NCBI GenBank assembly: GCA_046483065.1
Contig: JAWODW010000052.1
Location: 24,666 to 88,665 of the forward strand
Length of the DNA: 64,000 nt
Direction: 5' to 3'
DNA from: Longimicrobiales bacterium
GTDB taxonomy: Bacteria > Gemmatimonadota > Gemmatimonadetes > Longimicrobiales > RSA9
Made by a program: the position numbers and the translations under genes. The notes below the pieces were generated by a model, which did no database searches, was not told where the DNA came from, and was given only the letters and a program-made list of their open reading frames with translations. Below are positions 6,710 to 8,194 of the stretch, piece after piece; the first letter of the stretch is position 1; the number at the start of each line of letters is the position of its first letter.

Positions 6710-6958
6710 CTACTCCGTCACGAACCACCGCCGCCGGACCCACCACACCGCGCCCAGCACGACCAGGACCATGATCGGCCCGGTCAGGATCATGAACCAC
6801 GCCCGGTCCTGCGTGGCGTCGAACTCGCGGATCGCCTCGTCCTCGTCCCGGATCCGGGCCAGGTGGCCCAGCACATCCGCGTAGCCGTACCACCACGCGT
6901 AGTCGGGACTCATGTGGAACGCGCCCTTGTACGACTTCAGGTTCGAGAAGAAGAACAT
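6710..6958 (-). CDS. C-terminal fragment of the HAO-like cytochrome: helical region plus TM anchor
   Basis: MFFFSNLKSYKGAFHMSPDYAWWYGYADV... then a TM helix FMILTGPIMVLVVLGAVWWVRRRW. In frame with the upstream ORF across TAG. Confidence 0.5.
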   Translation of the reverse strand: MFFFSNLKSYKGAFHMSPDYAWWYGYADVLGHLARIRDEDEAIREFDATQDRAWFMILTGPIMVLVVLGAVWWVRRRWFVTE

Positions 6959-6997
6959 GTCGAAGTAATCCCGCTCGGTGGCCGTATAGCGAGGGCC

Positions 6998-7894
6998 CTA
7001 GGGGAGCCCGGCCGCCAGCTGGCCGTGGCTCGCATCGATGCGGTCGTCCTCGTAGAGACCCTGGAGGATCTCCCGAGCCTCGATCACCAGCGCATCGCCC
7101 GCCAGCTTGTGGGCGTCGGCCGACCGGAGGTACTCGCTGGCCTTCACCTCCGAGTGGCACGTCATGCAGACCCGGACCATTTCGTCTCGCTTCGCCCGGT
7201 TCTCGGGCTGGACCACGATGTCCTCCAGCTGACCCTCCGCCGGCTGCGTGCCCATCCCCCAGATGATCTTCCGGGTCATATTGTGGCTCGACGTCCGGTT
7301 CCCCTCGTCGTCCACGTAGACCATGTGGCAGTACGCGCACGTCGGAGCATCCCACTCGGCCTCCGGCAGCGGGGTACCCCAGTCCCAGCCATCGCCCAGC
7401 GCCGCGTAGATGGGCCCGTGCTTCGAGCTCATGTACGCCTCGTAGTTCGGGTGGTCCGGGCCCATGTGGCACGTATAGCACGACTCGGGCTTCCGCGCCT
7501 CCTCCAGGCTGAAGGAGTGCCGCGTGTGGCACGCGATGCACCCGTTCCGGTACGTGAGGCTGCTCCCGTCGATGTACTGCTGCAGCGAGTCGCTCCAGAG
7601 CGAGTCCGCCGTGGCCCCCGCCTGCGTGTGGCACGGGTCGCACCCCATCTCCATCACCTTTCGCGGCATCTGCTGATAGTTCGGCACCGCGATGTTCCGG
7701 TCCCAGTTGATCCCGATCCCCGCCGGGCCGGGACCGTAGGAATGACCCGCGTCCAGAACGTGCTCCTGGTAGATCTGCGGGTGACACGCCGCGCACCGGA
7801 TCTCCGGGCCCCGGCCCTTGCTGGCCGTGATCAGCGTGTGGTCCGTGCCGTGGCAGTCCGCGTCCGTCACCGCATGAGCGGGGAACTCCGGCAT
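6998..7894 (-). CDS. Central fragment of the HAO-family multiheme cytochrome c (six CxxCH)
   Basis: CAACH, CDPCH, CIACH, CYTCH, CAYCH, CMTCH. The block [42 protein letters not shown] matches my recollection of the HAO core. No signal peptide of its own. Confidence 0.6.
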   Translation of the reverse strand: [298 protein letters not shown]

Positions 7895-7906
7895 GAAGCC
7901 CGGGGC

Positions 7907-8194
7907 TCACGCACCTGCTCCACGAACACATCGAACGAAAGGGGTGTGCGCACCAGCGTCGGGCCCACGCCCCCCCTCCCCGCTCGCGCCGTGACAGCCC
8001 AGACACCCACGGGATATGTAGAGGTACTCCCCCGACGGTTCGCCCGCGGCGTCCCCGACCTGGACCGCTTCGCCGGCTTCGGCCTCCTGGGGCGATGCCG
8101 GGTCGGGGGCCGCCTCCTGCGCGGCCCCAGGGACCGCCCCGGCGGGGCCCGCCATGAGTGTCCCGAGAGCGAAAGCGAACAGGATCGTACGCAT
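7907..8194 (-). CDS. N-terminal fragment of the HAO-like cytochrome: signal peptide plus first heme site (CLGCH)
   Basis: MRTILFAFALGTLMAGPAGA signal peptide, then GCLGCHGASGEGG. Ends at TGA, in frame with the next ORF. Confidence 0.5.
   Translation of the reverse strand: MRTILFAFALGTLMAGPAGAVPGAAQEAAPDPASPQEAEAGEAVQVGDAAGEPSGEYLYISRGCLGCHGASGEGGRGPDAGAHTPFVRCVRGAGA

What the first reader, a model, noticed from the sequence alone, without database searches (positions are those of the whole stretch)
6710..8194. HAO-family octaheme cytochrome gene kept in a single frame but cut by an in-frame TGA and an in-frame TAG
Seen directly: the three minus-strand ORFs 7907..8194, 6998..7894 and 6710..6958 are all in the same frame. 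ORF 1 ends at TGA (7907-7909), followed by four sense codons (APGF) and the ATG of ORF 2. ORF 2 ends at TAG (6998-7000), followed by 13 sense codons (GPRYTATERDYFD) and the ATG of ORF 3. Only ORF 1 has a signal peptide and only ORF 3 has a TM anchor.

The conceptual 492-aa product has CLGCH, then DADCH where a second CxxCH would be expected, then CAACH, CDPCH, CIACH, CYTCH, CAYCH, CMTCH. The block [42 protein letters not shown], and the post-TAG region (KGAFHMSPDYAWWYGY, then a C-terminal TM helix), match what I remember of Nitrosomonas HAO (CHTRHEFS..RKPE.C..CH.G.DH.N.EAY..SKHG, a helical C-terminal domain carrying the cross-linking Tyr, and a membrane anchor).

So one ancestral gene is interrupted twice by nonsense codons, has no frameshift, and has one degraded heme site. 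Either it is a very young pseudogene, or an assembly/base-call error, or (less likely) a case of stop-codon recoding or read-through. An HAO-like enzyme in this non-nitrifier-looking context is of interest in itself.
Basis: partly seen in the sequence, partly recalled or inferred. Interest (0 to 1): 0.7.

Follow-up and report, generated by a model that had tools for sequence, protein, structure and literature searches.

The report
Decaying hydroxylamine-oxidoreductase-like cytochrome pseudogene
This is the wreck of a single haem-protein gene (hydroxylamine-oxidoreductase family) in a Gemmatimonadota genome, broken by two deletions, two frameshifts and a stop codon; it is an ordinary pseudogene, not a case of stop-codon recoding.

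Summary
Comparison with intact relatives shows more damage than was visible by eye.

Intact orthologues are single ~565-590-aa proteins: signal peptide, class I cytochrome c domain, eight-haem HAO module, C-terminal membrane helix (9 CxxCH in all). Against the syntenic orthologue L001 (92.8% nt identity) the window gene has five lesions:
- +1 G in a G-run (7970-7976);
- -1 G at CCCCGGG (7899-7901), so the TGA lies in a 22-codon out-of-frame stretch;
- a 222-nt in-frame deletion that removes the haem-1 site and the first Cys of haem 2, giving 'DADCH';
- GAG->TAG at 7000;
- a 63-nt in-frame deletion just after it.

Public metagenome contigs from three separate studies carry the deletions. Two carry the TAG and one carries the -1 frameshift. 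Other close relatives keep the intact gene. Other genes in the window are intact and use TGA/TAG as normal stops.

Verdict: a real, recently decayed pseudogene. Recoding is excluded, and assembly error is excluded for all lesions except possibly the extra G. Interest is low to moderate.

The parts
6710..8194 (-). Whole remnant of the HAO-like gene (pseudogene), from the native ATG to the native TAG stop
   Evidence: Same-frame ORFs. It aligns end to end with the intact 590-aa orthologue P0001/L001 apart from the lesions.
8132..8194 (-). Signal-peptide-like N-terminus (MRTILFAFALGTLMAGPAGAV). It contains a benign 6-nt TTCGCT repeat-number difference from L001 at 8168-8179.
   Evidence: Hydropathy and alignment with orthologues.
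7991..8005 (-). CLGCH, the haem-binding motif of the fused class I cytochrome c domain (not one of the eight HAO haems)
   Evidence: PF13442 match of 34.3 bits once the frame is restored. Invariant in 52 homologues.
7970..7976 (-). G7 homopolymer carrying a +1 insertion. Intact alleles have G6, and the X3 allele has G5.
   Evidence: DNA alignment with L001; metagenome contigs.
7902..7969 (-). Out-of-frame stretch between the two frameshifts. In the ORF frame it reads RGPDAGAHTPFVRCVRGAGA*A and contains the TGA (7907-7909). In the true frame it reads VGPTLVRTPLSFDVFVEQVREP.
7899..7901 (-). GGG where intact alleles have GGGG: a -1 frameshift that returns the reading to the ORF 1 frame
   Evidence: X1 shares the deletion. 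X3, and a minority of the X4 contig depth, have the extra base.
7857..7868 (-). Junction of the 222-nt (74-codon) in-frame deletion. It is a hybrid of the imperfect direct repeats GACGGACGCGGA and GACGTGCGCGGA, and it creates 'DADCH' (7850-7864).
   Evidence: The junction is spanned without a gap by X1 and X3 contigs.
7001..7849 (-). Remaining HAO module with six intact CxxCH motifs (CAACH, CDPCH, CIACH, CYTCH, CAYCH, CMTCH). It has no export signal of its own.
   Evidence: PF13447 at 154 bits; alignments to solved HAO structures.
6998..7000 (-). TAG nonsense codon. It is GAG (Glu) in L001 and X3. The neighbouring CTG (Leu) is mutated to CCC (Pro).
   Evidence: X1 and X2 contigs are identical to the window here.
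6974..6984 (-). Junction of the 63-nt (21-codon) in-frame deletion, between the imperfect repeats CGGCCA[C/T]CGAG
   Evidence: Spanned without a gap by X1, X2 and X3 contigs.
6887..6889 (-). TAC codon for the family-invariant Tyr of WWYGY, the candidate haem-cross-linking Tyr. It now lies downstream of the TAG.
   Evidence: Invariant in 52 of 52 homologues. It aligns with the QTYGN Tyr of Kuenenia HAO and with Trp in the cross-link-less Kustc0458.
6737..6799 (-). C-terminal hydrophobic helix (membrane anchor)
   Evidence: Hydropathy maximum at the equivalent residues 560-582 of P0001. Modelled as a helix.

Best explanation
The locus is a recently inactivated pseudogene of a stand-alone gene.

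What the intact gene encodes. In intact relatives the product is a periplasm-facing, membrane-anchored nine-haem cytochrome. It has a Sec signal peptide, a class I cytochrome c domain, a hydroxylamine-oxidoreductase-type octahaem module with a conserved candidate cross-link Tyr, and a C-terminal transmembrane helix.

How the window copy was damaged. Slippage between short imperfect direct repeats removed 222 nt and 63 nt. The 222-nt deletion took out the C-terminal helix of the cytochrome c domain, the haem-1 site and half of the haem-2 site. Homopolymer slippage added one G and removed one G 66 nt apart. A G->T change turned a Glu codon into TAG.

Why it cannot work.
- Shown: translation from the native start ends after 95 residues, inside the frameshifted stretch.
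- Inferred from established knowledge: c-type haem attachment needs Sec export and a complete CxxCH. The 298-codon and 82-codon ORFs begin at conserved internal Met codons and have no export signal, so they cannot be matured as c-type cytochromes. No functional HAO-like enzyme is therefore made.

Shown: the anatomy of the lesions, their presence in independent samples, and the intactness of orthologues.

Inferred: the order of events. The two deletions came first, because a more distant allele shares them. The nonsense codon, the -1 frameshift and several radical replacements followed. The +1 came last.
For: - A family of single ~565-590-aa proteins exists, with 1725 hits at E <= 1e-5. All 52 aligned members have 9 CxxCH and both segments that the window lacks.
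- About 78 species-representative genomes carry one contiguous gene.
- L001 is a syntenic orthologue at 92.8% nt identity, and it fixes each lesion to the base.
- Restoring the frame lifts the PF13442 score from 15.7 to 34.3 bits.
- Independent public contigs confirm the lesions. X1 has the 222-nt and 63-nt deletions, the TAG and the -1. X2 has the TAG and the 63-nt deletion. X3 has both deletions. X4 and X5 carry the undeleted allele at about 95-97% identity.
- The damage is gene-specific. Every other flagged frame switch in the 64-kb window resolved into intact adjacent genes.
- The genetic code is standard: TGA 23, TAG 4, TAA 2 among 29 genes.
- dN/dS against L001 is about 0.15-0.2, so constraint held for most of the divergence and the inactivation is recent.
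- On the window branch since the split from X3 there are 5-6 replacements, including V204G, L460R, L473P and E474*, at sites 94-100% conserved apart from the variable 474, against at most 1 synonymous change.
- The window has 7 changes at strongly conserved columns, against 1 for P0001.
- Synteny with Longimicrobiales MAGs shows a vertically inherited locus.
Against: - The source reads of this assembly could not be examined. The G7 run is not seen in any other sample (X1 has G6), so that one lesion may be a base-calling error.
- Logan contigs show presence, not absence, and depths are low (3-9x).
- The relative-rate and branch counts are small and not statistically significant (13 against 7, p = 0.26).
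- All lesions together still preserve the overall frame, which is somewhat unexpected for random decay.
- The X3 allele looks otherwise healthy. It keeps a full CxxCH at the junction and has 4 synonymous against 2-3 replacement changes. So the deletions alone may not have been what killed the gene.
- No RNA or protein data exist.
Confidence: 0.88

Rival explanations
1. Assembly or base-calling artefact: the real genome carries an intact hao-like gene, and the lesions are errors of sequencing or assembly.
For: Two of the five lesions sit in homopolymers, which are typical long-read error sites. The G7 length is unique to the window; X1 has G6. The source reads were not available, and no run holds more than 49% of the locus k-mers.
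Against: The TAG, the 63-nt deletion, the 222-nt deletion and the -1 at CCCCGGG all recur in contigs from independent public runs and studies (X1, X2, X3). Deletions bounded by 11-12-nt repeats are not an assembler failure mode. Other genes in the window show no frame breaks. Correcting G7 to G6 gives the X1 allele, which is still frameshifted, deleted and stopped.
Confidence: 0.04
2. Recoding: UGA is read as selenocysteine (or read through), UAG is suppressed or read as pyrrolysine, or programmed frameshifting occurs at the G-run, giving a full-length protein.
For: The overall frame is preserved across both stops. A slippery G7 run lies at the first frameshift.
Against: The UGA lies in a stretch that is out of frame relative to the conserved protein, so inserting any residue there gives nonsense. 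The 3' hairpin is no better than shuffled sequence (z = -0.07). The TAG position is a variable P/E/Q/A/R/S site, and it is GAG in L001 and X3. No homologue has a stop at either place. TGA and TAG are the normal stops of the window's genes, and there is no tRNA gene in the window. Even full read-through would give a protein that lacks the haem-1 site and one Cys of haem 2.
Confidence: 0.01
3. A functional shortened or split form: either the double-deletion protein is a working 'pruned' HAO in this lineage and only the window strain's copy has since died, or the three ORFs act as separate subunits.
For: Both deletions are in frame and are shared by lineages 1-5% apart. The X3 allele keeps a complete CADCH at the junction and ancestral residues elsewhere, with 4 synonymous against 2-3 replacement changes on its branch. 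Loss of haem modules is a known route of multihaem cytochrome evolution (PMC9250108).
Against: All 52 aligned family members and about 78 genomes keep both segments. Haem-1 C147/C150/H151 and C186 are invariant. In the homologous Kustc0458/7 complex the partner cytochrome docks at haem 1 (PMC8042395), so the deletion cuts the likely electron path. Every sampled deletion allele carries at least one further inactivating lesion: X3 has G5, X1 has the -1 and the TAG, and the window has all of them. ORFs 2 and 3 start at conserved internal Met codons and have no export signal.
Confidence: 0.05
4. Phase variation: the G-run is a contingency tract that switches the gene on and off.
For: Three tract lengths occur among close relatives: G5 in X3, G6 in X1, L001 and X4, and G7 in the window.
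Against: The window and X1 alleles also carry irreversible lesions (deletions, TAG, -1), so no tract length restores function. Only G6 is in frame, and it is the only length seen in undeleted alleles. A tract of 5-7 G is short for an efficient switch.
Confidence: 0.02

Closest known systems
Kuenenia stuttgartiensis Kustc0458 (HAOr; PDB 6H5L), a nitrite-reducing octahaem HAO complexed with the dihaem cytochrome c Kustc0457
   Same: It is the best-scoring solved structure for the intact orthologue (E 4.5e-41). The octahaem CxxCH order is the same. The C-terminal helix motif is very similar (YKGTAHAQQDVSWWWGQA against YKGAFHMSPDYSWWYGYA). An extra cytochrome c sits next to the HAO module; in Kustc0458/7 it docks at haem 1 (PMC8042395).
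   Different: In the present family the cytochrome c is a fused N-terminal monohaem class I domain rather than a separate dihaem subunit. The family has a C-terminal membrane helix. It has Tyr where Kustc0458 has Trp at the cross-link position. The window copy is a pseudogene.
Oxidative HAOs: Nitrosomonas europaea HAO (1FGJ, 4N4N) and Kuenenia HOX Kustc1061 (4N4J)
   Same: Pfam PF13447. E 7.6e-34 to 7.2e-31 to the intact orthologue over ~420 residues. The family-invariant Tyr aligns with the QTYGN Tyr of Kustc1061. Foldseek's top 10 hits are all HAO-family structures.
   Different: Identity is only about 22-25%. There is an added cytochrome c domain and a membrane anchor. No haoB, c554 or cM552-type neighbours are present, and the gene is stand-alone in a non-nitrifier phylum. 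The alignment to the N. europaea Tyr467 is ambiguous by two residues. Whether a P460 cross-link forms is untested.
Ordinary bacterial pseudogenes formed by slipped-strand deletion between short direct repeats and by homopolymer indels
   Same: Deletions are bounded by 11-12-nt imperfect direct repeats, there are +/-1 changes in G-runs, and there is a nonsense substitution. Intact orthologues sit at the syntenic locus, and replacements are elevated at conserved sites.
   Different: All indels sum to a multiple of three, so the remnant mimics a gene cut only by in-frame stops. An allele series at different stages of decay can be seen in public metagenomes.

Membership tests
HAO / octahaem cytochrome c family (Pfam PF13447) | Significant match to the family profile | tested here: met
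   ORF 2 scores 154 bits, E 6.2e-45, against a cut-off of 21.9. The NCBIfam hydrazine dehydrogenase model gives only a partial match, 72 bits against a cut-off of 900, so it is not an HDH equivalog.
HAO / octahaem cytochrome c family (Pfam PF13447) | Eight CxxCH haem-binding motifs in the HAO module | tested here: not met
   The window retains 6 of 8. Haem 1 is deleted and haem 2 is reduced to DADCH. Intact orthologues have 8 plus 1 in the cytochrome c domain, in 52 of 52 members.
HAO / octahaem cytochrome c family (Pfam PF13447) | Homology to experimentally solved HAO structures | tested here: met
   The orthologue P0001 against 6H5L, 1FGJ, 4N4J, 6T5E and 6HIF gives E 4.5e-41 to 4.3e-18. Foldseek's top 10 are all HAO family, but TM is only 0.23-0.31 because the model is poor (pLDDT 63.5).
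HAO / octahaem cytochrome c family (Pfam PF13447) | One continuous, exported polypeptide (signal peptide in frame with the haem domains) | tested here: not met
   In the window a frameshifted stretch with a TGA separates the signal peptide from the HAO module. A TAG then separates that module from the C-terminal helix.
Oxidative (P460-type) HAO subgroup | Tyr that cross-links to the catalytic haem of the neighbouring subunit | tested here: inconclusive
   The invariant Tyr (WWYGY, 52 of 52) aligns with the QTYGN Tyr of Kustc1061 and with Trp in the cross-link-less Kustc0458. I identified the QTYGN Tyr as the cross-linking residue by my own residue counting, assuming a 36-residue offset between chain and precursor numbering. 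The HMMER alignment to N. europaea Tyr467 is offset by two residues in a low-confidence region. In the window the codon (6887-6889) lies downstream of the TAG.
Oxidative (P460-type) HAO subgroup | Homotrimer with a 463-475 nm P460 absorbance and hydroxylamine-oxidising activity | not testable with these tools
   This needs a purified intact homologue (criteria from PMC8042395).
Selenoprotein or stop-codon recoding | In-frame UGA at a conserved Cys/Sec position, with a SECIS hairpin 3' of it | tested here: not met
   The UGA is in a frame that does not encode the conserved protein. The 73-nt 3' fold has z = -0.07 against shuffles. No homologue has a stop there.
Pseudogene | Intact orthologue at the syntenic locus in close relatives | tested here: met
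   L001 is 92.8% identical and syntenic on both flanks, with an intact 590-aa ORF. X4 and X5 carry undeleted alleles. Synteny holds with the Longimicrobiales loci L003 and L004.
Pseudogene | Disabling lesions are real, not sequencing artefacts | tested here: met
   Four of the five lesions recur in independent public contigs. The G7 insertion is unconfirmed.
Pseudogene | Relaxed selective constraint | tested here: inconclusive
   The window branch has 5-6 replacements against at most 1 synonymous change, and 7 against 1 changes at strongly conserved columns. The numbers are small (p = 0.26 overall). Whole-divergence dN/dS is still 0.2, as expected if the inactivation is recent.

The most novel reading that the evidence does not exclude
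The two in-frame deletions may not be mere decay. They may be a recurrent or selected 'pruning' of the haem-1 module and of a 21-residue loop, producing a shortened HAO-like cytochrome that worked for a time, or still works in X3-like strains.

The window and X3 alleles differ at both junctions in exactly the bases that distinguish the two copies of each direct repeat. The window keeps the left-hand variant at both junctions and X3 keeps the right-hand variant at both. This fits independent parallel deletions, or a single annealing event whose two strands founded two lineages.
Probability: 0.08. Interest if true: 0.6.

Novelty: new member of a known kind. Interest (0 to 1): 0.25.

Why it matters
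Three points, none of them a new mechanism.

1. Annotation. Gene callers would report up to three 'multihaem cytochrome / hydroxylamine dehydrogenase' fragments here. Metagenomic nitrogen-cycle surveys routinely count hao hits in non-nitrifier MAGs as metabolic potential (for example PMC13335318 and PMC11828985). This copy should not be counted.

2. A caution for reading raw sequence. A gene that appears to be cut only by in-frame stops can hide compensating frameshifts and in-frame deletions. An apparent case for recoding must therefore be tested against orthologues.

3. The parent family may deserve study. It is a cytochrome c / HAO / membrane-anchor fusion with an invariant candidate cross-link Tyr. 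It is a stand-alone gene, widespread in Gemmatimonadota, Rokubacteria/Methylomirabilota and other soil and sediment phyla, and I found no biochemical characterisation of it. The allele series in public metagenomes runs from intact, to double deletion, to added stop and frameshifts. It is a small natural record of how such a gene is lost.

Tried and rejected
- Exact-product look-up of ORF 2 found nothing on record.
- The JGI metagenome scan for close relatives found a best identity of only ~70%, so it gave no further alleles of this lineage.
- The RNA-run search found none, so there is no expression evidence.
- I suspected a natural short subfamily, because several loci showed short match ranges. 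This was rejected: with the intact P0001 as query, all of them are full length, and none of the 52 aligned homologues lacks either segment.
- I suspected that the window is generally error-ridden. Codon-usage segmentation flagged many same-strand frame switches, including a look-alike pattern at 3241-4504. This was rejected: all inspected cases are adjacent intact genes, and 29-36 kb is an Mrp antiporter operon with overlapping genes.
- SECIS-like structure: none beyond chance.
- There is no paralogue of the gene in the window and no tRNA genes.
- Conserved operon partners of intact family members: none. The neighbours differ between loci.
- The AlphaFold model of the intact orthologue has low confidence in the haem core (mean pLDDT 63.5). 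I used it only for secondary-structure mapping and a weak fold check.
- Literature searches found no paper describing this fused clade or its occurrence in Gemmatimonadota.
- The tblastx synteny output was dominated by GC-rich noise, so I used only the long high-identity blocks.
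Full report
OBSERVATION. On the minus strand, ORFs 8194..7907 (95 aa), 7894..6998 (298 aa) and 6958..6710 (82 aa) share one frame. TGA is at 7909-7907 and is followed by APGF and then ATG. TAG is at 7000-6998 and is followed by GPRYTATERDYFD and then ATG. The listed CxxCH-type motifs are all present. ORF 2 matches Pfam PF13447, the HAO-type multihaem family, at 154 bits against a cut-off of 21.9. This is not a chance arrangement.

The tail of ORF 1 (…GEGG RGPDAGAHTPFVRCVRGAGA*) looks like nonsense. The overlapping frame reads GVGPTLVRTPLSFDVFVEQVREPR, a typical class I cytochrome c sequence. 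Splicing the frames raises the PF13442 score from 15.7 bits, below the cut-off, to 34.3 bits, above it.

A search of 5.8 billion proteins found a large family: 1725 hits at E <= 1e-5 among the 8000 candidates scored. The members are single proteins of ~565-590 aa that carry both PF13442 and PF13447. They come mostly from Gemmatimonadota, Rokubacteria/Methylomirabilota and other uncultured soil and sediment lineages. Aligned with these, the window product lacks 74 residues between AVTD and ADCHG, and 21 residues between RYTAT and ERDYFD. The spliced frame matches the homologues residue for residue.

BASE-LEVEL ANATOMY. The closest homologue, P0001 (590 aa), is encoded on a 2.3-kb contig, L001. 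L001 is 92.8% identical to the window and collinear with it on both sides of the gene, including the convergent flavin-reductase gene, so it is an orthologous locus. Relative to L001 the window has:
- (i) a harmless 6-nt difference in a TTCGCT repeat in the signal peptide;
- (ii) one extra G in a G-run (G7 against G6; + strand 7970-7976);
- (iii) one missing G in CCCCGGGG (7899-7901);
- (iv) a 222-nt deletion whose junction (7857-7868) is a hybrid of the imperfect direct repeats GACGGACGCGGA and GACGTGCGCGGA;
- (v) GAG->TAG at 7000, with the neighbouring CTG->CCC;
- (vi) a 63-nt deletion whose junction (6974-6984) is a hybrid of the repeats CGGCCA[C/T]CGAG.

Lesions (ii) and (iii) lie 66 nt apart and cancel each other. 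The TGA sits inside the shifted stretch, so it is a by-product of the frameshift and not a nonsense mutation of the ancestral frame.

In P0001 the 74-residue segment (113-186) holds the C-terminal helix of the cytochrome c domain, the linker, the first HAO haem motif CATCH with its flanking helices, and the first Cys of the second motif CADCH. This explains the window's 'DADCH'. All 52 aligned family members have nine CxxCH motifs and both segments. C147, C150, H151 and C186 are invariant.

ARE THE LESIONS REAL? No public run holds the whole locus (best 49% of k-mers), and the source reads are not available. Contigs from independent public metagenomes do cover it.
- X1 (sediment, 2021) is identical to the window across the TAG and the 63-nt junction. 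It spans the 222-nt junction and shares the -1 at CCCCGGG, but it has G6. It is therefore simply frameshifted (…REPRASCRSSPLMR*). Its four substitutions against the window all lie within 7945-8015 and are all synonymous in the true frame.
- X2 (freshwater sediment, 2025) is identical across the TAG and the 63-nt junction.
- X3 (soil, 2025; 95-99% identical) has both deletions but reads GAG (Glu), CTG (Leu) and GGGG. It has G5 in the run, which is an independent -1 frameshift.
- X4 and X5 carry the undeleted allele. Their loose ends read into …VEWPDKQ… and …AQHWPAG….

So four of the five lesions are natural alleles present in several environments. Only the seventh G is unconfirmed, and without it the gene is the X1 allele, which is still dead.

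The rest of the window does not look error-prone. Every frame switch flagged by a codon-usage segmentation turned out to be a pair of intact neighbouring genes.

RECODING. Recoding is excluded for five reasons.
- The UGA is out of the conserved frame.
- The 73 nt 3' of it fold no better than shuffled sequence (z = -0.07).
- The UAG replaces a variable residue (P/E/Q/A/R/S in the family).
- No homologue has a stop at either site.
- TGA (23), TAG (4) and TAA (2) end the 29 other genes I checked.

The ATGs of ORF 2 and ORF 3 are conserved internal Met codons: M103 of …RGFMPEFP… is invariant, and M509 of …YFDMFFF… is nearly so. Neither ORF has an export signal. By the established requirements of cytochrome c maturation (Sec export, complete CxxCH), neither could become a haem protein. 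That last step is inference.

TIMING AND SELECTION. dN/dS between the window and L001 is 0.20 overall, and 0.14-0.16 in the cytochrome c, multihaem and post-TAG parts. The gene was therefore under purifying selection for most of that divergence.

I polarised the window/X3 differences with L001 as outgroup. On the window branch there are V204G, D457E, L460R, L473P and E474*, against at most one synonymous change. On the X3 branch there are four synonymous and two or three replacement changes. Positions 204, 460 and 473 are 94-100% conserved in the family.

Against more distant outgroups, the window has 13 private replacements and P0001 has 7. At strongly conserved columns the counts are 7 and 1. 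These numbers are small and not significant on their own, but they point to recent loss of constraint.

The likeliest order of events is:
1. the two deletions, which are shared with X3;
2. in the window/X1/X2 lineage, the -1, the TAG and the radical replacements;
3. in the window only, the +1.

X3 acquired its own frameshift independently. This suggests that the deletion-bearing gene was already dispensable.

WHAT THE INTACT GENE IS. The best solved relative is Kuenenia Kustc0458 (HAOr, 6H5L; E 4.5e-41). Next come N. europaea HAO, Kuenenia HOX, Brocadia HAO and hydrazine dehydrogenase. Foldseek on a low-confidence model also ranks only HAO-family structures in its top ten.

In the C-terminal helix the family reads KGAFHMSPDY(A/S)WWYGY, and the Tyr of WWYGY is invariant (52 of 52). 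It aligns with the QTYGN Tyr of the oxidative Kuenenia HOX, and with Trp (SWWWGQ) in Kustc0458. Kustc0458 lacks the cross-link and works reductively (PMC8042395). This is consistent with an oxidative, P460-type enzyme, but it is not proof. The alignment to N. europaea Tyr467 is offset by two residues in a weak region.

In Kustc0458/7 the partner cytochrome docks at haem 1 (PMC8042395). By analogy, the fused cytochrome c domain of this family probably feeds or drains haem 1. The 222-nt deletion removes exactly that connection. This last point is inference.

Intact family members are stand-alone genes with unrelated neighbours. The window's neighbours are a flavin reductase, a methyltransferase, an Omp85-family protein and a P-type ATPase.

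The nearest genomes are Longimicrobiales/Gemmatimonadota MAGs, and they share downstream synteny with the window.

UNRESOLVED. At both deletion junctions the window keeps the left-hand repeat variant (T-D-A-D-C; A-T-E) and X3 keeps the right-hand one (T-C-A-D-C, so a full CxxCH; A-I-E). There are three possible explanations: independent parallel deletions, one annealing event whose two strands segregated, or later conversion from an intact allele. The present data cannot separate them. This observation, together with the otherwise healthy X3 allele, keeps alive a low-probability reading in which the shortened protein was functional for a time.

VERDICT. This is a real, recently decayed pseudogene of an HAO-like nine-haem cytochrome. 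The apparent 'single frame cut by two stops' is the net effect of compensating indels and in-frame deletions. It is ordinary as a phenomenon. It is useful as a caution for annotation, and it points to an uncharacterised, widespread HAO-like family.

Noticed in passing
P0001-P0120; loci L002-L162 (family of the intact gene): The intact family has a fixed architecture: signal peptide, class I cytochrome c domain, octahaem HAO module with an invariant candidate cross-link Tyr, and a C-terminal membrane helix. All 52 aligned members have 9 CxxCH. It is a stand-alone gene spread across Gemmatimonadota, Rokubacteria/Methylomirabilota, Dadabacteria, Binatia, Eisenbacteria, Myxococcota and others. I found no paper that characterises it.
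   Followed up: partly
L068:5599-6884; L061:~7311; L064:~6609-6621; L067:~6723: Four of about 78 species-representative genomes also carry broken copies. L068 has a ~100-residue deletion plus a frameshift, joining ENRAKR… to …LKSYKGAF. L061, L064 and L067 each have a single frame break, which could be real or an assembly error. The gene seems to be lost repeatedly.
   Followed up: partly
window 7945-8015: All differences between the window and the otherwise identical X1 contigs cluster within about 70 nt around the G-run: four substitutions, all synonymous in the true frame, plus the G7/G6 difference. This looks like a small recombination patch or a local mutational hot spot.
   Followed up: no
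window 7857-7868 and 6974-6984: The deletion junctions differ between the window (left-hand repeat variant at both) and the X3 allele (right-hand variant at both). This raises the possibility of recurrent deletion or of heteroduplex segregation.
   Followed up: partly
window 8168-8179: A TTCGCT hexamer repeat in the signal-peptide coding region has 2 copies in the window and 3 in L001 (FAFA against FAFAFA). This is an in-frame, apparently harmless length polymorphism.
   Followed up: no
window 14823-15212 (-) and 41272-41900 (-): Two further small monohaem cytochrome c genes share a very similar core (C..CH…G…LGPDLTD.EW.N…PMPPMGG). They are probably paralogues, and both are intact.
   Followed up: no
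window 29100-36530 (+): This GC-rich (73-75%), strongly AT-skewed stretch gave many frame switches in the codon-usage segmentation. It is an Mrp/Mnh-type multisubunit cation:proton antiporter operon (MrpF, MbhD/MnhB/MbhE and two Proton_antipo_M subunits) with overlapping genes. It is not damaged. The last ORF (34656-36527) has no Pfam match.
   Followed up: partly
window 41889-42122 (-): A short ORF ends …DCEYVAVAEALDAPLLPWDRAVLAAFPDVAV…. It resembles the C-terminal part of a PIN-domain (VapC-like) toxin and may be a truncated remnant.
   Followed up: no
window 8192-8202 and 7892-7902: The same 11 nt, GGGCTTCATGC, precede and include both the native start ATG and the ATG of ORF 2. By my rough estimate a repeat of this length is about what chance would give in 1.5 kb of GC-rich DNA.
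   Followed up: no
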